Positions 1,801 through 29,153 are shown, counted from the stretch's first letter. The stretch: DNA of 64,000 bases from a virus (IMGVR_UViG_3300029959_000704:1-64000); one strand, 5' to 3'. Translations and numbers: made by a program. Notes: generated by a model not told the origin, from the letters alone.

Positions 1801-3090
1801 CTAATAATTTAGTGTTATAAACTCTGAATCACTAAATCCAGGATAACCATCCATACCTTGAGTAATCATGTACATTCCTGGTAAGGCTGTATAATTACCT
1901 GCAGAATCTTGATAATATGTGTAATTAGTAGAATTATAATAAATAGAACCTGTTTGTCCACTGTAGTAACAATTATTTTTATCCTCAGTTAAATCAAAAG
2001 TTAGATAATTATAATCTACAAATCCATAATAAGGAACCTCACTTAAAGGTACACTATAAGCAGCTTGACTTACTGTTATATTCACAGAAGATAATTGTCC
2101 AATAGGGTCAGAAACTGTTATAGTGCCAGACCTTGCACCTCCAGAATTAGAAGCAACTGTAAATGTTACTGAACCAGTTCCTTCACCTGTACCTCCTCCT
2201 GTTATAAATGCACCTGAAGCAACTTGTACAGACCATTTTACTGAAGATGTAATATTGACAGTTATATTATTTTGACTAGCACTAACTGAAAAAGATGCTG
2301 GAGATATATTTCTAGTTGTATTTTTATATCTTTCACCCTCTTCTATAATTACTCCATTACTTATTCTTTTGAATCTATAAGTAAGCCAATCTCCTTCTAA
2401 ATCCCAATTCTGCACATAAGTTCCATTAGCCTTAGCACCCCAAGTCCCCATAGCTTGATTAAAAGATACATGCCATTCTCCAGTAGAAGAGTTTTTATAT
2501 ATAGAACCTAGATTAGCTGTCCAACCATTATTAGTATCTAAATAAGATACTATAGAGGCTAAATCTGCATTAACATCACTAGTTTGATAGCAATATGGTC
2601 CCCAAGTTTCTTCTATATATGATGGAACATAAATTTGATAATTACCATCAACAGTTCCATAAGTATTAGTAGTCCAATATGCCCATGCAGAACCTGTATA
2701 GAACATAAAATAACCTACTCCTACAGAGTTATTATTTGTATTGTATAAAGAAGTTCCATTCCTTACTTGAGCAAAAGCAGTCCCATCAAAAGCATAATCA
2801 ACGAATAAAAATGTAGAAAAATCTGCATTGTAAGCATTGTAAGGACTGGAGCCATATTTAAAAGATATAGCTGACCTATATCCCTCATGTGCAGGCAATC
2901 TATTATCTGCTGATAAAGCATAATCTCCATTAAATACTGCATTATACTTGGTAGCAATCTGCCCTTTGTCATAACATCTCTTGTCATCTAATCCAAAGGG
3001 AGATTGTCCAGATTTTAAAGCACCATGTAATTTATTTTCAATTTGACCTCCATCTAGAAGTTCATCATTTCTAGTTATTACTTGTGACAT
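1801..3090 (-). CDS. BACON-domain virion protein
   Basis: Segment ISPASFSVSASQNNITVNITSSVKWSV...GSVTFTVASNSGGARSGTITVS...ITVSQAA matches the BACON Ig-like pattern (W, N-x-x-x-x-R-x-G-T-I-T-V, terminal Q). Confidence 0.8.
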   Translation of the reverse strand: MSQVITRNDELLDGGQIENKLHGALKSGQSPFGLDDKRCYDKGQIATKYNAVFNGDYALSADNRLPAHEGYRSAISFKYGSSPYNAYNADFSTFLFVDYAFDGTAFAQVRNGTSLYNTNNNSVGVGYFMFYTGSAWAYWTTNTYGTVDGNYQIYVPSYIEETWGPYCYQTSDVNADLASIVSYLDTNNGWTANLGSIYKNSSTGEWHVSFNQAMGTWGAKANGTYVQNWDLEGDWLTYRFKRISNGVIIEEGERYKNTTRNISPASFSVSASQNNITVNITSSVKWSVQVASGAFITGGGTGEGTGSVTFTVASNSGGARSGTITVSDPIGQLSSVNITVSQAAYSVPLSEVPYYGFVDYNYLTFDLTEDKNNCYYSGQTGSIYYNSTNYTYYQDSAGNYTALPGMYMITQGMDGYPGFSDSEFITLNY

Positions 3091-6000
3091 AATTGTGCTC
3101 TTAATTGTTTAACTTCTAATTCTAATTCAAATACTTTTTTAGCTAAAGAATCTTGCCTTTGTGCTAATTCTTGAATAGCTTTAATAGCTATTACACCTAT
3201 TCTTGGATATTCCAAAGCTAAATAACCTTTAGAATCCTTACCAACCAAAGGATTGAAGTACTGTTCAAATTCTTGAGCTGACATACCAAGAATAATTTTT
3301 GAACCACCTTTCTCAGTGTAATAGAATGTCTTAAAGTTTTTAATAGTATCCAATACATTACCTAACGGCTGAATTACATTTTTCAACCTCATATCTGAGG
3401 TATGGTAAAAAGCGGCTGCTGATAATCCACCAGAATCTGATAAATACATTTTTGCGGAAGTATTAAATCTCAGTTCAAGAGTAGTTCCATTAGGTATAGC
3501 TTCCCAGTTGTCTCCGATTTTTACGGAAGATGCAGACCAGCTTATATCGGTTCTATTAGCATTCCCTGCGTGATACATTATATTTGAGTTAAAATATATA
3601 TTAGCTAAAGTATAAGGTATTGCTAATCCATTAGAAGGAATCGTACTAGCACTCTCAGAGCCTCCTTTTACCATACACCAAGTATCTGCTGGGTTCACCC
3701 CAATTAACCACTGTCCAGACTGCGTTCCTGTTGTGTTTGCTGTATTTACCTTAAATTGCACATTAGACCACCCGCTATAAGCCCCAATTCTAATTCCCTC
3801 TGAATACGAACCCGTAGTTGGTTGAATAGTGAGTAGGCCATTAAAATACCCTGTACCATTTACCTTTAGTTTGTGATTTATACTTCCCGAATATCCTATT
3901 GCTACATTTCCACCTAAAGGTTGAAATATGAGGTCATAAATTGACTGTCCTCCATCAAATCTTTGTGATTGAAACCATGTATTTCCATCTCCTGTAACTC
4001 CGATTGCTGTACCATAAGAAAAGTATCCCGAAACCCCAAGAGACATACTTGAAATACTACCTAGAGATGGAGATGTAAGTGCATCACCTATAATTGAACC
4101 ACTCCTACCTTTAAAGTAAGAAGTTGTCTCGATTACACCACTACTCCATAAACCATCTCTAAAGTAAGCGTTTCCCGCTACTGCAAACTTTTCACTTCTT
4201 CCAAAATATCCAACTCCTACATTACCATTACCAATATTAAGAGTGCCCATATAATCTGTGCTTGCAGACCTTGTTCCAAATGATAGGTGAGCATAGCCCA
4301 ACCCCTCCTGCCTTATCCCTATGTAAGCAGAATAAACAGAGGGTTCTAGGTGAGTTAATATAAGAGATTTTGGGCTATCATAAGTTCCTCCTCCCGAAAT
4401 ATATGTACTGCCGCCACTAATTGAAATCGGACTATTCCCAAACGCCCCACTTGTCTTATAAGGGATATATCCTGTTGAAAGGTTAGTGAAAGTTGCGTTG
4501 GTGGCTTGGATAGTTGAGGCAAAAGTGGCTGAGTTATTCGCTTTTGATATAGTTAAAGCATCTGTGCCTGTACCTTCATTATAAATTATGTAGTTATTTG
4601 AGGAGAGGTTTTCCCTCATTCCTACGAACCATTGATACTCATTCGCCGTCCAATAGTTTATGCCACAGTAATTATTTGTAGCAGCCCTATTAAAAATTAA
4701 TCCGGTTGTATTCCTATCAATTTGTATTCTTCCATTAATTTTTATGCTTGCTGATTGAGCGACAGAATCTTGATTTTGTATATAATTAGCAGAACCACTT
4801 GAGGGGGCGGCGTAGGAGGTATAGTTGCCGGCATGTAGTACTGCTTGGTAACTGGCCCCGTTATAAACCCTTAAATCAATCCCACTATCTGCTCCAGTAG
4901 CATTTTTCGAATAAAATCGTAACTGGTTGGCGGCGTAGTGATAGTACTGAGCGGCCCTTGCAATATCATTGTCCTCAGCATATAAAAACGCGTCGGAGTA
5001 GGCCAACTCCCACCGTAATTTACTTGCTTGAAATAACCGTAATTTTCCGCTTAAGTCCCCCCCACTCAAAGGCAAATAAGCAGTTGAGGTGTAAGCATTA
5101 GAGCCTAGACCTAAATCAGATTTGATGGTTGCTATGTTGCCTGTGTGGTAAAGTTTAGCTCTCCAACTTATGTTATCACTATAACCACCACCAATAGTTG
5201 CGTTAGGTGTACTATAATCTAATGCTAAGAATCCGTGAGTATCGCTGCCAGCCCAAACAATAGCTGTACCGTAAGAACTGTTATATCCTGAAAGAAGTGT
5301 TGGTACATCATCCCATCTCCAAGCCTTAATTTGCCAACCAATTGTTGCTGCACCAAAAATGCTTGTTCTAAAATTAGTAGTTGCTACAGTGCTAGTTAGA
5401 GCCGAAAGCCCATCGGATAATAAGTAAAGACCACCAACAGGAATATAAGTTCCATTGTGATTATGACTTGTTAAAGCGTAAGAATTATTATCGTAACTCA
5501 CACCAGTACCATTCATACGAACTAATCCTGTGCCGTTGAGTTGATTTTGTTTTGTAGCTAAAGCATCAGCAAGGTCTACAACCTCTGTCATATCTACAAA
5601 ACTGTTGTACCACTTGCCAGTAGATGCATTATACATCATTACATGGCCTGATTGAAGACCTGTAAATGTAGTATCCATGATATGGGACATATAAGTAGAA
5701 TGAGGATTTCCTGTTAATAAAGAATGAGCATATCCAGCCTGATAATTAGTTTTCTCTGTAAGAGTTATATGTAGGAAATTATTATCTCCATTTAAAGCTC
5801 TTAATTGAGAGTGTCTAATTCTATTTGGGTTATTAAGATATGCTGCATATCCATCACCTAATTGATAAGTGATATTTACAATCCCAACATGTGTTGTTCT
5901 AACAAGAATTCTAGCACCCATTCTATCTGTAGGGCTTACATCAAAAATAGGTTGTGTAGAATCAAATTTTATATAACCGTTAGCAGTATTGTTTATGTCA

Positions 6001-20728: not shown

Positions 20729-20803
20729 TGGACATAGTTCAACAAGTAGAACGCAACCATGAGTGTATGTGTTGAAATATAGGTTCGAATCCTAATTGTC
20801 CAG
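20729..20803 (+). ncRNA. tRNA-like element 1 with non-canonical anticodon arm
   Basis: Acceptor TGGACA/TGTCCA, D arm GTTC/GAAC, T arm TAGG-TTCGAAT-CCTA. The CAAC/GTTG stem encloses 13 nt rather than 7; no CCA. Confidence 0.65.
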
Positions 20804-25215: not shown

Positions 25216-25288
25216 TGAGAGATGGTGTATTGGTGCACGGTTTAAATATTTATTTATACAGGAGAGGGTTCGAATCCCTCTCTCTTTA
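25216..25288 (+). ncRNA. tRNA-like element 2 with non-canonical anticodon arm
   Basis: Acceptor GAGAGA/TCTCTT, D stem GTGT/GCAC with GG loop, perfect T arm GAGGG-TTCGAAT-CCCTC. The 20-nt AT-rich anticodon arm has no 7-nt loop; no CCA. Confidence 0.7.
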
Positions 25289-25313
25289 CTATTAATTTAA
25301 AACTAATTTAATT

Positions 25314-27074: not shown

Positions 27075-27386
27075 ATGGAAAGAATTAAACCAAGACCTAT
27101 TCATATACTACTTAAAATAGTTATTGATAATTTCAGAGCTCATTTTGAAGATGGGCTTTGTCATACTTTTAGATCCATGCAAGAGTGGAATGTGATTAAT
27201 CATACAGAATGTGTTGAGCTAGATGTTTTCTTGAGATCACACAAGTCAACTAATTCAAAAAAGAAAAAATGGCCTTATTTTTGGGAAGTAAACAGACCTT
27301 TTCCAAGAAAAGCTTGGTTATGGAAACATTACATTCTTCAATCAATAAAATTTAAACTTGAAAATAAAAGGGGTAAAGTTTTTTAA
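27075..27386 (+). CDS. Hypothetical protein, distant member of paralog family A
   Basis: GLC and YFW...PRKAWL motifs. Confidence 0.65.
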   Translation: MERIKPRPIHILLKIVIDNFRAHFEDGLCHTFRSMQEWNVINHTECVELDVFLRSHKSTNSKKKKWPYFWEVNRPFPRKAWLWKHYILQSIKFKLENKRGKVF

Positions 27387-27454
27387 AAATTAAACTAATG
27401 AGTTTGTGTTATAATTTTAAGAAAATCCTTTATTCCTTTTTACTTTTTATAAAC

Positions 27455-28440
27455 TAATCCGGGAAAATCGGATGGAGGTGTGGGTTAAAACCACCATAGA
27501 ATACAGAAGTCCATTGTCGTATTTAGATATTATATGGAATAGAATATCTCTAGTTTATAATTTAGGCTAAACATTGATGCCTCGGTAAATACCCATGCAA
27601 AATACTTATCGTGTACACGAAAAAGATACAAGTATTTACCCAAAGATACTAATCCTGAATTGACAGGAGATTAAAGGCAAACGTGATATGAAGTATTAGA
27701 GAAATGGGGTTACTATCAAGAGAATGTAATCCCGCCAGGCTACCCATCTGGTCTATCAGTAGATAATTCTATTCGCCTATAAGAAATTAATGGAGTAATC
27801 CTAGATGTGTTGTTGTTAGGTTAACCTAACCAGTTAGAAATAGCTGCCCTTGAGAAAGGAAGAAGCCCTTTAGTAGAATGTTTCCTCCCCATAGTACAAC
27901 TACTACAACACAAATGAGTTCTCAGCGAAAAAGATGATTAAGAATCGGTTATCTAAAGTTTAGGCTAAAGAGCCATACATCATATAATCATCTGACCCTA
28001 CTCTTACTACCTACCCTATGATTAGGGTTGTAGAGAGAAGTAAGATAAGAGGGTGCTAATAGATAGAGATGCTATAATCTTTGAATCAAGACTTGAAAAA
28101 TGGTTCCGCCTCAGTATTCACGGCGAAATGGAATACCTTGGGTCAAAGAAAACTACACATTTTCTCCAAGTAGTGTTGATGCTTTTAATAGGGGATGCCC
28201 AACAGGTTTTGTATAAGTAGAAAACCGATATGACTACTCACTTGTAATCTCAAAGTGGGGGGAGAATAAGTTGCTTGAAATGATACACAGCAGCTAAAAA
28301 TCCTGGACCGGTATACAAACACCGGTATATGAAATGACTCTAATAGTTTGCCAGGTGTAAAAGGAGTAAAGTGGCTATAAAATAGTTTACAAAGTGCCAT
28401 ACTTAGGGGTGAAATGAAAATACAACTAGTCCCCTTTTTT
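27455..28440 (+). ncRNA. Large (~1 kb) structured ncRNA candidate, GOLLD-like by size and context
   Basis: About 1 kb with no credible ORF, many helices and GNRA tetraloops, a 3' pseudoknot and a terminal stem plus T run; lies among tRNA-like genes. The family assignment is unverified. Confidence 0.7.
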
Positions 28441-28463
28441 ATTAAAATTAATAATATTTAATT

Positions 28464-29153
28464 ATGTGGAGTATATTTAACTTATTTAAAAGTAAAAAAC
28501 CTGTTAAGAAACAATTAACAGAGGAACAGCTTGAGATTATTAAATTGGAAATCCAGACTATCAACAAAAAATGCGAAGCCATAGCTGATTCCAAAAGTAA
28601 AGACTCTCGTGATAGGCATGAAAAAGAAAATTCAACTTGCCCTAAATGCAAAGCTACCCAAACAATAGATAAATTTAAAAGAACAAAAGGTGCAATATCT
28701 GGACGCTTTAGTGGAACTTCTGGTTTATTTGGAGGATCTTCTTATGGAAGTATTTATGGTGAACTTGATACTTTAGAGGTAAACCAATGTCGTATTTGTG
28801 GCAATGAATGGAAGAAAACTAAGCCATTTTACTGGAGTATGAGAGAGATTAGAACAGATCATCTAAACGTATTAAGAAGGCTACTTAAAGATTATAAAGA
28901 GGCTAGAGAATGTAAATTTGATAAATCTAATTTAGAAGAAATTTATAAATCTCGTGAAGAAAAGGTTGAAGCTTTCCTAAAACAAATAGAGGACTCTTAT
29001 TGTAAAAAAGAAACTATTCAAATATGGGAAGGATTTCATATTGAAACTATTAAGGAGTTGATGAAATCTGAGGAAGAGTATGCGCAAATAAAGTGGGAGG
29101 AAAATTATGATGAAGGAACTCTTCTATCATTAGGACTTTGTAAATTTAATTAA
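28464..29153 (+). CDS. Hypothetical Zn-ribbon protein
   Basis: CPKC and CRIC pairs separated by a Gly-rich insert. Confidence 0.7.
   Translation: MWSIFNLFKSKKPVKKQLTEEQLEIIKLEIQTINKKCEAIADSKSKDSRDRHEKENSTCPKCKATQTIDKFKRTKGAISGRFSGTSGLFGGSSYGSIYGELDTLEVNQCRICGNEWKKTKPFYWSMREIRTDHLNVLRRLLKDYKEARECKFDKSNLEEIYKSREEKVEAFLKQIEDSYCKKETIQIWEGFHIETIKELMKSEEEYAQIKWEENYDEGTLLSLGLCKFN

What the first reader, a model, noticed from the sequence alone, without database searches (positions are those of the whole stretch)
27455..28440. About 1-kb densely structured non-coding RNA candidate
Seen in sequence: the longest non-coding stretch of the block is less AT-rich than its flanks and full of helices. Examples: GGTAAATAC/GTATTTACC (27584/27632), GTGTTGT/ACAACAC (27807/27905) enclosing CAGTTA-GAAA-TAGCTG and CCTT-GAGA-AAGG GNRA hairpins, a long hairpin at about 27995-28054, CCTGG/CCAGG (28302/28351), interleaved GTAAA/TTTAC and GTGGC/GCCAT pairings (a pseudoknot, 28366-28400), and a terminal stem plus T6. 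Established: GOLLD and ROOL are large ornate RNAs found in phages, often near tRNAs, with unknown function. Inference: this is a GOLLD-class or new giant RNA in a crAss-like phage, longer than the roughly 800 nt typical of GOLLD.
Basis: partly seen in the sequence, partly recalled or inferred. Interest (0 to 1): 0.8.

Follow-up and report, generated by a model that had tools for sequence, protein, structure and literature searches.

The report
Two conserved structured phage RNAs
The gene-free kilobase is not one giant RNA. It holds two adjacent, conserved, folded non-coding RNAs of unknown function between unstructured spacers, and the larger one belongs to a widespread uncatalogued phage family whose copy in a cultured crAss-like phage lies in a region reported as very highly transcribed.

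Summary
The stretch is non-coding, richer in G+C than its flanks, and partly structured. It is composite.

Module A (27560-28061) belongs to a family with seven collinear near-invariant blocks separated by variable inserts. I collected 81 distinct full-length members from IMG/VR and metagenomes. On 77 of them, 57 pairs are 92% paired and 41 pairs change on both sides. The covariation score is 0.213, against 0.106 when shuffled (0/500) and about 0.05 when slid.

Module B (28056-28266) is a second conserved RNA. Elsewhere it sits inside dense phage tRNA arrays. A and B adjoin only here and in one other contig.

The flanks (27455-27559 and 28267-28440) have no homologs and fold no better than shuffles.

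Rfam 15 gives no hit, although its GOLLD model scored 165 bits on a control phage. None of the A or B motifs occurs in published GOLLD/ROOL alignments.

Family A is present in Cellulophaga phage phi14:2, directly after g004. That is inside an intergenic region reported to be transcribed above most protein genes, early and persistently.

Verdict: a real RNA and a new family of the GOLLD/ROOL kind. It is neither GOLLD nor a single 1-kb molecule. This scan has already met family A on other genomes.

The parts
27407..27415 (+). TGTTATAAT, a match to an extended -10 (TGnTATAAT), 21 nt after the stop of the upstream ORF. A possible promoter only.
   Evidence: Read from the sequence. The consensus scan does not list it because there is no -35 element. 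No Bacteroidetes-type TTTG..TAnnTTTG motif lies here. Inference only.
27455..27559 (+). 5' spacer or leader. It is not conserved and folds like shuffled sequence.
   Evidence: z is -0.67, and 49 of 200 shuffles fold as well. nhmmer finds no homolog in 1.4 Mb of family loci.
27560..28061 (+). Module A: a member of a widespread uncatalogued phage RNA family, the same family as the sequence after g004 in Cellulophaga phage phi14:2.
   Evidence: Seven collinear blocks are shared with most homologs. The family HMM hits 27562-28060 at E=3.6e-56.
27562..27584 (+). H1 hairpin, with the near-invariant loop TAAACATTGA (block B0).
   Evidence: 5 of 5 pairs change on both sides in the family. In the window the stem is AGGC/GCCT.
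27584..27640 (+). H2 (GGTAAATAC/GTATTTACC), enclosing a variable hairpin.
   Evidence: 6 of 6 pairs change on both sides and 93% are paired. One pair is GC in 35 members and AU in 27.
27641..27669 (+). Block B1: the most conserved segment, with hairpin H3 (CCTG-AATTGA-CAGG).
   Evidence: The 20-mer at 27648-27667 is identical in 26 IMG/VR contigs and at least 119 metagenome contigs.
27670..27791 (+). H4 (ATTAA/TTAAT), closing the main variable region. Member L117 holds a tRNA-like insert here.
   Evidence: 5 of 5 pairs change on both sides. The L117 insert scores 31 bits against the Rfam tRNA model.
27792..27801 (+). H5: GGA-GTAA-TCC, a GNRA-tetraloop hairpin.
   Evidence: 3 of 3 pairs change on both sides and 99.6% are paired. 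The loop stays GNRA (GTAA, GAAA or GTGA).
27806..27912 (+). H6 (TGTGTTG/CAACACA). It encloses two window-specific hairpins (27815-27846), H7, and a variable hairpin.
   Evidence: 7 of 7 pairs change on both sides and 99.6% are paired. The insert hairpins have z -3.66.
27850..27855 (+). Loop UUGAGA of H7, the 5' half of a candidate pseudoknot with 27920-27925 (UCUCAG).
   Evidence: 95.2% paired. Five pairs vary on one side only and one pair changes on both sides. This is compatible with pairing but does not prove it.
27903..27927 (+). Block B3 (ACAACACAAATGAGTTCTCAGC): a junction strand and the 3' half of the candidate pseudoknot.
   Evidence: k-mer conservation. About eight members carry an optional hairpin, NNNN-UAUCC-GNRA-GGAC-NNNN, after AAATGAG.
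27932..27992 (+). H9 (GATGATTA/TAATCATC in the window, GTAGTTAA/TTAACTAC in the consensus), with a variable apex.
   Evidence: 8 of 8 pairs change on both sides.
27995..28054 (+). Closing helix of module A (blocks B4 and B5: ACCCTACTCTTA... / ...AAGAGGGT).
   Evidence: 7 pairs counted, 95.7% paired, 2 changing on both sides.
28056..28266 (+). Module B: a second conserved structured RNA, about 215 nt. In other phages it sits inside tRNA arrays.
   Evidence: nhmmer hit to L173 at E=5e-13. 53 IMG/VR contigs match a 19-base pattern. The family HMM hits 28065-28264 at E=1e-42. 7 of 29 predicted pairs change on both sides.
28267..28440 (+). 3' spacer or tail with a weak terminal hairpin and a T6 run (28436-28441). 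Not conserved.
   Evidence: z is -0.61 for 28267-28410 and +0.08 for 28360-28445. No homolog. No tRNA even with relaxed ARAGORN settings. Not listed by the terminator scan.

Best explanation
Positions 27560-28266 of the + strand encode two adjacent structured non-coding RNAs. They belong to two separate families that ride in phage tRNA/tmRNA islands.

SHOWN
- Module A folds into about ten covariation-supported helices. These include multi-helix junctions, a GNRA hairpin and a candidate pseudoknot, built around seven near-invariant strands with variable inserts between them.
- Module B is a smaller fold of the same style.
- In other phages both modules start within a few bases of a tRNA 3' end, and they are co-oriented with tRNA and tmRNA genes.
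- The family-A sequence of phi14:2 lies in a region reported as abundantly transcribed.

INFERRED (about 0.55)
- The RNAs are transcribed with neighbouring small RNA genes and trimmed by the host tRNA-processing nucleases.
- They accumulate as stable trans-acting RNAs through infection.

INFERRED MORE WEAKLY (about 0.3)
- The target is a conserved part of the host translation system (ribosome, tRNA or tmRNA pathway), bound by the invariant loops and junction strands.
- The RNA may act as an RNA-only assembly, as GOLLD and ROOL do.

The outer 27455-27559 and 28267-28440 are spacer, or leader and tail.
For: - Non-coding.
- Family A size: 26 viral and at least 119 metagenome contigs share an exact 20-mer, giving 81 distinct full-length members of 268-1003 nt.
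- Structure of A: 57 pairs, 92.1% paired, 41 pairs and 262 cells changed on both sides. The covariation score is 0.213, against 0.106 shuffled (0/500) and 0.043-0.063 slid.
- Strand: 221 G-U cells against 65 A-C cells, and 61 of 62 nearby tRNA/tmRNA genes lie on the same strand. The GNRA loops read correctly only on the + strand.
- Processing context: A starts 3-10 nt after a tRNA 3' end in 5 loci. A tRNA or tmRNA follows within 5-59 nt in 4 loci, and 165 nt downstream in a fifth. B starts directly after a tRNA, and a tRNA starts about 26 nt after the matched B pattern.
- Spread: A occurs in crAss-like contigs whose portal is only 24-46% identical to the window's, and in complete 130-180 kb phages without that portal. 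The core is therefore conserved far beyond the proteins.
- Expression: A lies at 2908-3362 of phi14:2, 4 nt after g004. The g004-g005 junction is reported as transcribed rightward above most protein genes, from 40 min and without a later drop (bioRxiv 10.1101/2020.03.07.982082).
- Module B.
Against: - There are no transcript data for this phage, so the ends, and whether A and B are one or two molecules, are unknown.
- The window has no tRNA directly abutting A or B. The nearest are 2.3 kb upstream and 2.8 kb downstream, so processing by tRNA enzymes is inferred from other members.
- No partner has been identified. The most frequent neighbouring protein (24 loci, the homolog of phi14:2 g004, function unknown) is absent from the window.
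- The mapping of family A onto the published lncRNA rests on coordinates. The paper gives none, and I could not see g005 in the record.
- The translation target and any multimer formation are argued by analogy only.
- Covariation for B is modest: 7 of 29 pairs.
Confidence: 0.6

Rival explanations
1. One giant RNA of about 1 kb (27455-28440), of the GOLLD class or larger. A and B would be its domains and the flanks part of the fold.
For: - A and B abut without a recognisable terminator between them.
- The same A-then-B order recurs in L173.
- GOLLD is also bipartite, with tRNAs in its linker (PMC12286853).
- A's 3' junction (AAATGAG..CTCAGCA plus a hairpin) resembles B's 5' junction (AATGAG..CTCAGCA plus a hairpin).
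Against: - A and B occur apart in nearly all loci. B was found in 3 of 148 A loci, one of those only partially (L129). A was found only as fragments in 2 of 53 B loci.
- The flanks are unconserved and fold like shuffles.
- There is no match to the GOLLD model or its motifs.
Confidence: 0.12
2. An anti-defence decoy. The RNA rides with phage tRNAs and sequesters or misdirects host nucleases that attack tRNAs, or other RNA-sensing defences.
For: - It is located in tRNA/tmRNA islands.
- Member L117 carries an embedded tRNA-like insert.
- Both conserved loops contain AUUGA, the complement of the common T-loop core UCAAU (my reading; not tested).
- Expression in phi14:2 is early and sustained.
Against: - No defence or counter-defence gene is consistently adjacent.
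- The tRNA-like insert is present in few members.
- Near-invariance across phages of very different hosts fits a universal target better than a lineage-specific defence.
Confidence: 0.12
3. A ribozyme or mobile intron-like element, for example a self-splicing or self-cleaving RNA, or an RNA-processing catalyst for the neighbouring tRNA/tmRNA genes.
For: - It has a large, compact-looking architecture: invariant junction strands, a GNRA loop, a candidate pseudoknot and modular optional inserts.
- Identical 20-35-nt blocks occur in unrelated phages, as horizontal spread would produce.
Against: - No Rfam group I, group II, RNase P or small-ribozyme hit even at E<=10.
- It sits between genes, not inside them. 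It begins 3 nt after intact tRNAs, so there are no exons to join.
- No homing endonuclease or reverse transcriptase lies nearby.
Confidence: 0.08
4. Not an RNA gene. The stretch would be a DNA-level element (origin, packaging or protein-binding site) or a decayed or recoded protein gene.
For: - The folding z-score is as strong on the - strand.
- In the one distant relative of the downstream protein (L002), a 390-aa ORF lies two genes upstream of that protein's gene.
Against: - Compensatory changes keep the helices, with a G-U over A-C bias of 221 to 65.
- There is no tblastx or blastn similarity to the L002 ORF.
- There is no long ORF under three genetic codes.
- The stretch is co-oriented with tRNA genes.
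Confidence: 0.03

Closest known systems
The abundant 'long non-coding RNA' of the g004-g005 junction of Cellulophaga phage phi14:2 (Drobysheva et al., bioRxiv 10.1101/2020.03.07.982082)
   Same: Same sequence family. All blocks are present at 2908-3362 of NC_021806, on the same strand, in a crAss-like phage. It gives the family its only expression data: high, early and persistent.
   Different: - About 455 nt in phi14:2, against 502 nt here.
- phi14:2 has a tmRNA 670 nt downstream and no module B. The window has module B and no tmRNA.
- The paper did not define a fold, a family or a function.
GOLLD RNA (Rfam RF02032)
   Same: It is a large, elaborately folded phage RNA of unknown function. It lies beside or among tRNA genes, has a conserved core plus variable regions, and sometimes has a tRNA embedded (PMC12286853; one search shows a tRNA inside the phiCbK copy).
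   Different: No sequence or model similarity. The helices and motifs are different. Family A is essentially absent from cellular genomes: about 3 real hits among one genome for each of 185,579 species.
ROOL RNA (Rfam)
   Same: Same kind of RNA, in the same genomic neighbourhood (phages and tRNA islands), and abundant when measured (PMC12286853).
   Different: No Rfam hit, and no A or B motif in the published ROOL alignment. ROOL is typical of prophages of Firmicutes. Family A is found in lytic-type environmental and crAss-like phages.
The 'new phage RNA' reported earlier in this scan (e1-5680392, with e1-5680409, e1-5862293 and e1-5940145)
   Same: These notes share short words and the named motifs ACAACACAAATGAG, TAAAGATAC and UUGAGA/UCUCAG with module A. 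They give the same description: uncultured phages, among tRNA genes, absent from the catalogue.
   Different: Those cases are tandem or duplicated copies on other genomes. Here there is a single copy, fused to a different module (B).
tmRNA
   Same: It is a frequent co-oriented neighbour of family A: 10 of 148 loci, 55 nt downstream in L138 and directly after A in L123 and L191. It is likewise a structured RNA processed by tRNA enzymes.
   Different: Neither ARAGORN nor Rfam detects a tmRNA anywhere in the window. A and B have no tRNA-like acceptor/T-arm pair and no tag reading frame.

Membership tests
GOLLD (RF02032) | Match to the Rfam covariance model at or near its gathering score (150 bits) | tested here: not met
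   No hit at gathering score or at E<=10 on 27300-28550, and none in 17+7+12 homologous loci. Positive control: phiCbK scores 165.3 bits.
GOLLD (RF02032) | Shares the universally conserved 3'-domain sequence | tested here: not met
   None of 18 motif strings from A or B (8-17 nt) occurs in the GOLLD Stockholm alignment or sequence table of PMC12286853. That file was truncated when stored.
GOLLD (RF02032) | Phage-borne, next to tRNA genes, tRNA sometimes inside a variable linker | tested here: met
   The family context is co-oriented tRNA/tmRNA genes (61 of 62). L117 has a tRNA-like insert. In the window itself the nearest tRNAs are 2.3-2.8 kb away.
GOLLD / ROOL | Forms RNA-only multimeric cages | not testable with these tools
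   Needs cryo-EM or native gels of in vitro transcripts.
ROOL | Match to the Rfam model or to the published alignment motifs | tested here: not met
   No Rfam hit. No motif in the ROOL Stockholm alignment.
Uncatalogued family A (phi14:2 lncRNA family) | Seven collinear conserved blocks B0-B5 in order, with variable spacers | tested here: met
   All blocks lie at 27565-28060. The family HMM aligns positions 3-423 to 27562-28060 at E=3.6e-56.
Uncatalogued family A (phi14:2 lncRNA family) | The covariation-supported helices can form in this sequence | tested here: met
   The window is row 1 of alignment A1. H2, H4, H5, H6, H9 and the closing helix pair in it, several through changes relative to the consensus (for example GATGATTA/TAATCATC). 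H1 keeps only 3-4 pairs.
Uncatalogued family A (phi14:2 lncRNA family) | Expressed as an abundant stable RNA | not testable with these tools
   Known only for phi14:2, from the literature. No RNA run is on record for this phage.
Uncatalogued family B (tRNA-array module) | Conserved blocks (GGGATGCC..CAGGTTTT..AAAACCGA.AT.ACTACTCAC..AATCTCA..GTGGGG) and the 5' three-way junction | tested here: met
   HMM hit at 28065-28264, E=1e-42. The window replaces GAGT/ACTC with ATAG/CTAT in the first hairpin. The 5' AATG/CATT closing pairs are not kept in the window.
Group I/II introns, RNase P RNA, tmRNA | Match to the Rfam models; for tmRNA also detection by ARAGORN | tested here: not met

The most novel reading that the evidence does not exclude
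Families A and B are new classes of large phage RNA with an active role of their own. A would either assemble into an RNA-only higher-order particle, as GOLLD and ROOL do, or act catalytically, on a universal component of host translation or tRNA metabolism. This would explain why a 20-35-nt core is identical in phages whose proteins have diverged to 24-46% identity.
Probability: 0.2. Interest if true: 0.9.

Novelty: new variant of a known kind. Interest (0 to 1): 0.7.

Why it matters
GOLLD and ROOL showed that phages carry large RNAs that build cages of unknown purpose. Few such families are known, and none is tied to a convenient lytic model.

Family A adds a third family, unrelated in sequence. 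It is spread through marine, freshwater, groundwater and wastewater phages, including crAss-like ones. It has a cultured representative (phi14:2 on Cellulophaga baltica), and published RNA-seq already points to very high expression there. That makes its function directly testable by deletion, pull-down and cryo-EM.

Family B adds a further unnamed occupant of phage tRNA arrays. In phi14:2's original GenBank annotation the A region was covered by small spurious antisense ORFs.

Tried and rejected
- Alternative genetic codes (TAG=Q, table 4): no long ORF.
- blastn of the stretch against GenBank phages: no match. A consensus-like member later found phi14:2. The equivalent search with module B found nothing.
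- Flanking proteins as a route to homologs. The 229-aa downstream protein has one 38% relative, whose contig lacks A and B. Scans with the phosphoesterase and the 229-aa protein found nothing.
- Thirty portal-related crAss-like genomes (50-60% identity): only chance 15-mers inside ORFs.
- L003 is 100% identical and so is useless for covariation.
- Genome-collection scan with an 18-mer: 22 hits, of which about 17 are expected by chance and only 3 are real. My first impression of presence in Streptococcus and other genera was wrong.
- RNase P, group I/II intron, SRP and tmRNA likenesses that I considered by eye are not supported by Rfam.
- My first register for the outer part of the closing helix was wrong (41% paired), so I dropped it.
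- The candidate pseudoknot is compatible but unproven. RNAalifold's long-range UGAGUA/UACUCA closure of B is invariant and not kept in the window.
- Sequencing runs: no RNA holder listed. The laid wastewater runs labelled RNA-Seq are marked 'probably DNA'. I used them only to discover the conserved blocks, not as evidence of expression.
- Neighbour-protein clustering found no universal partner. The commonest neighbour has no Pfam domain and no informative Atlas match.
- Two supplement searches could not be done as intended: PMC10690425 holds no supplementary text, and the GOLLD and ROOL alignment files are truncated.

Full report
**1. What is in the stretch**

The window is part of an 81-kb IMG/VR virus record. 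It has crAss-like features: a P22-type portal, a BACON-domain protein, a 2144-aa ORF, ribonucleotide reductase and a family A DNA polymerase.

Between the ORFs at 27075-27386 and 28464-29153 no frame exceeds 71 aa under table 11, TAG=Q or table 4. G+C is 36-38% against 21-30% around it. The 986-nt stretch folds better than dinucleotide shuffles on both strands, with z = -2.5 (+) and -3.6 (-). Local 150-nt windows average only about z = -1 on the + strand.

Rfam 15 gives nothing here, either at gathering scores or at E<=10 with lax filters.

**2. Finding relatives**

The usual routes failed:
- GenBank phages by blastn.
- The flanking proteins.
- Thirty crAss-like genomes whose portal is 50-60% identical.
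- A second contig, which is 100% identical.

The lead came from laying public runs on the stretch. Wastewater contigs matched only three short segments (27634-27668, 27788-27814, 27905-27930), always in the same order, with unrelated letters of different length between them.

An 18-mer scan of one genome for each of 185,579 prokaryotic species gave 22 hits. About 17 are expected by chance, and only three hits (contigs binned into MAGs) carry the other blocks. The element therefore belongs essentially to phages.

Its carriers include crAss-like contigs whose portal is only 24-46% identical to the window's. They also include complete 130-180 kb phages without that portal.

**3. Module A (27560-28061)**

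Seven blocks are shared in order by most members:
- B0 (27565-27578)
- B1 (27640-27668)
- B2 (27789-27814)
- CCCTTGAGAAAGGAA (27847-27861)
- B3 (27903-27926)
- B4 (27993-28006)
- B5 (28047-28060)

The 81 distinct full-length members measure 268-1003 nt from B0 to B5, with a median near 450.

On the tool's own MAFFT alignment of 77 members (A1), I wrote the helices from the consensus and counted them. The results are:

| Measure | Value |
|---|---|
| Pairs | 57 |
| Cells paired | 92.1% |
| Pairs changed on both sides | 41 |
| Cells changed on both sides | 262 |
| Covariation score | 0.213 |
| Score, shuffled | 0.106 (0 of 500 shuffles reach the observed score) |
| Score, partners slid by 1-3 columns | 0.043-0.063 |

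An unbiased mutual-information scan put the same pairs on top.

G-U cells outnumber A-C cells 221 to 65. Of 62 tRNA or tmRNA genes within 2.5 kb, 61 lie on the same strand. The RNA is therefore read from the window's + strand.

The CAGTTA-GAAA-TAGCTG hairpin belongs to a window-specific two-hairpin insert that L167 shares.

The supposed CCTT-GAGA-AAGG tetraloop hairpin is better read as a TTCC/GGAA stem with a 9-nt loop. Its UUGAGA can pair with UCUCAG at 27920-27925. The pairing is 95% kept, but almost only through one-sided changes, so it remains a candidate.

**4. Module B (28056-28266)**

The sequence after A matched one other A-bearing contig, L173, at E=5e-13. A 19-base pattern from it then found 53 IMG/VR contigs, many of them 100-260 kb.

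In those contigs the module is about 215 nt long. It starts directly at the 3' end of a tRNA, and another tRNA starts about 26 nt after the matched pattern, all within dense tRNA arrays. Rfam has no match.

RNAalifold on 32 members predicts 29 pairs, and 7 of them change on both sides. One pair is GC in 19 members and AU in 13. In its first hairpin the window replaces GAGT/ACTC with ATAG/CTAT.

HMM searches show that A and B are neighbours only in the window and in L173, with a partial case in L129. Each occurs once in the window. They are separate modules that happen to be fused here.

Their junction motifs look alike: AAATGAG..CTCAGCA plus a hairpin in A, and AATGAG..CTCAGCA plus a hairpin in B. 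This may mean shared ancestry. I did not test it.

**5. The flanks**

The three flanking pieces fold like shuffled sequence:
- 27455-27559: z = -0.67
- 28267-28410: z = -0.61
- 28360-28445: z = +0.08

The CCTGG/CCAGG hairpin reaches z = -1.76. None of these has a homolog. The terminal stem has 5 bp with a 23-nt loop and is not called by the terminator scan. Relaxed ARAGORN settings find no tRNA.

A TGTTATAAT at 27407-27415 could be an extended -10 promoter. This is my reading only.

**6. Comparison with known families**

The Rfam search works as a test. The GOLLD model RF02032 scores 165 bits on Caulobacter phage phiCbK, with a tRNA inside the match. It scores nothing on A or B loci.

None of 18 A/B motif strings occurs in the GOLLD or ROOL alignments, or in the sequence table, of the cryo-EM paper (PMC12286853). 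Those alignment files were truncated when stored.

The likeness to GOLLD and ROOL is one of kind: large phage RNAs of unknown function, in tRNA islands, with a conserved core and variable regions, and occasionally an embedded tRNA (L117).

A survey of 10,006 candidate viral structured RNAs reports elements averaging 67 nt and does not describe this family.

**7. A cultured carrier and expression**

A consensus-like member hits Cellulophaga phage phi14:2, a crAss-like phage (Crassvirales, Steigviridae). Locus L132, from the IMG/VR scan, has the same 100,418-bp length as this genome.

Family A lies at 2908-3362 of NC_021806 on the + strand, 4 nt after g004 (2194-2904). A tmRNA lies at 4031-4500, before g006 (4602). 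The original GenBank annotation covers A with three 34-39-aa antisense ORFs, which RefSeq removed in 2020.

Drobysheva et al. (bioRxiv 10.1101/2020.03.07.982082) made the following report. [quoted passage not shown] They are present from the earliest time point and do not decline. Their function 'remains to be determined'.

By position, the first is family A and the second is most likely the tmRNA. This mapping is my inference, because the paper gives no coordinates. I found no later paper on these RNAs in the held library.

**8. How it probably works**

Shown:
- Two conserved folds on the + strand.
- Co-orientation with tRNA/tmRNA genes, and direct abutment to them in other phages. A starts 3-10 nt after a tRNA in five loci.
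- Extreme conservation of single-stranded junctions and loops across very different phages.
- The family-A sequence of phi14:2 lies in a region reported as highly and persistently transcribed.

Inferred:
- The RNAs are made as part of small-RNA polycistrons and cut out by host tRNA-processing nucleases.
- They act in trans as stable RNAs.
- Because the invariant parts are conserved far beyond any phage protein, the target is likely a universal host component. The company A keeps points to the translation apparatus.

None is excluded. A DNA element or a decayed gene is essentially excluded by the covariation and the G-U bias.

**9. Novelty**

Both families are absent from Rfam 15. Family A has been seen as an unnamed abundant transcript in one paper. 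This scan has already noted it on other genomes, where one follow-up called it a new phage RNA in tandem copies.

This window adds a single copy fused to module B, the definition of module B, and the link to phi14:2.

Noticed in passing
L337 (NC_021806.1) 4031-4500, + strand: Cellulophaga phage phi14:2 carries a tmRNA (ARAGORN tag GSSVQKLAMVA*; Rfam 46 bits against a 47-bit cut-off on L132). The record shown has no annotation for it. It probably accounts for the second 'long non-coding RNA' of the g005-g006 junction in the 2020 preprint.
   Followed up: partly
L219:500-519 and 1821-1840 (- strand): Two copies of the family-A 20-mer lie 1.3 kb apart on one 2.5-kb metagenome contig, so the copies are in tandem. 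Earlier notes of this scan reported the same on other genomes.
   Followed up: no
L117:2233-2301 (- strand): The smallest family-A member carries a tRNA-like sequence (D-loop-like and GTTCGAATC T-loop-like; Rfam tRNA 31 bits) inside the variable region between blocks B1 and B2. L138 and L116 have T-loop-like or D-loop-like strings at the same place.
   Followed up: partly
L116, L139, L157, L170, L171, L181, L205, L224 (alignment A1, columns about 627-776): An optional inserted hairpin, NNNN-UAUCC-GNRA-GGAC-NNNN with a covarying outer stem, sits exactly between AAAUGAG and UUCUCAGC in about eight members.
   Followed up: no
L132:1056-1763 (phi14:2 g004) and 26 relatives in 24 loci: A 210-345-aa protein of unknown function (weak match to phrog_15656; N-terminus MKxIHILPTDKPSRL) is the most frequent co-oriented neighbour of family A, often within 10-800 nt. 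It is absent from the window. It has no Pfam domain, and the Atlas model has low confidence.
   Followed up: partly
window 28464-29153: The downstream 229-aa protein has two CxxC pairs (CPKC and CRIC), so it is probably a zinc ribbon. Only one relative (38% identity) was found among 5.8 billion clustered proteins.
   Followed up: partly
window 25216-25289 and 20729-20803: ARAGORN calls a tRNA-Asn with the unusual anticodon ATT at 25216, which Rfam does not report. Rfam calls a weak tRNA (31.8 bits) at 20729, which ARAGORN does not.
   Followed up: no
L002:4064-5177: The only contig encoding a relative of the downstream protein has its own 1.1-kb stretch without a called gene. It contains neither family A nor family B.
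   Followed up: partly
L183:2484-3084 (- strand): This family-A member has the 5' hairpin block (TAAACATTGA) twice in tandem.
   Followed up: no
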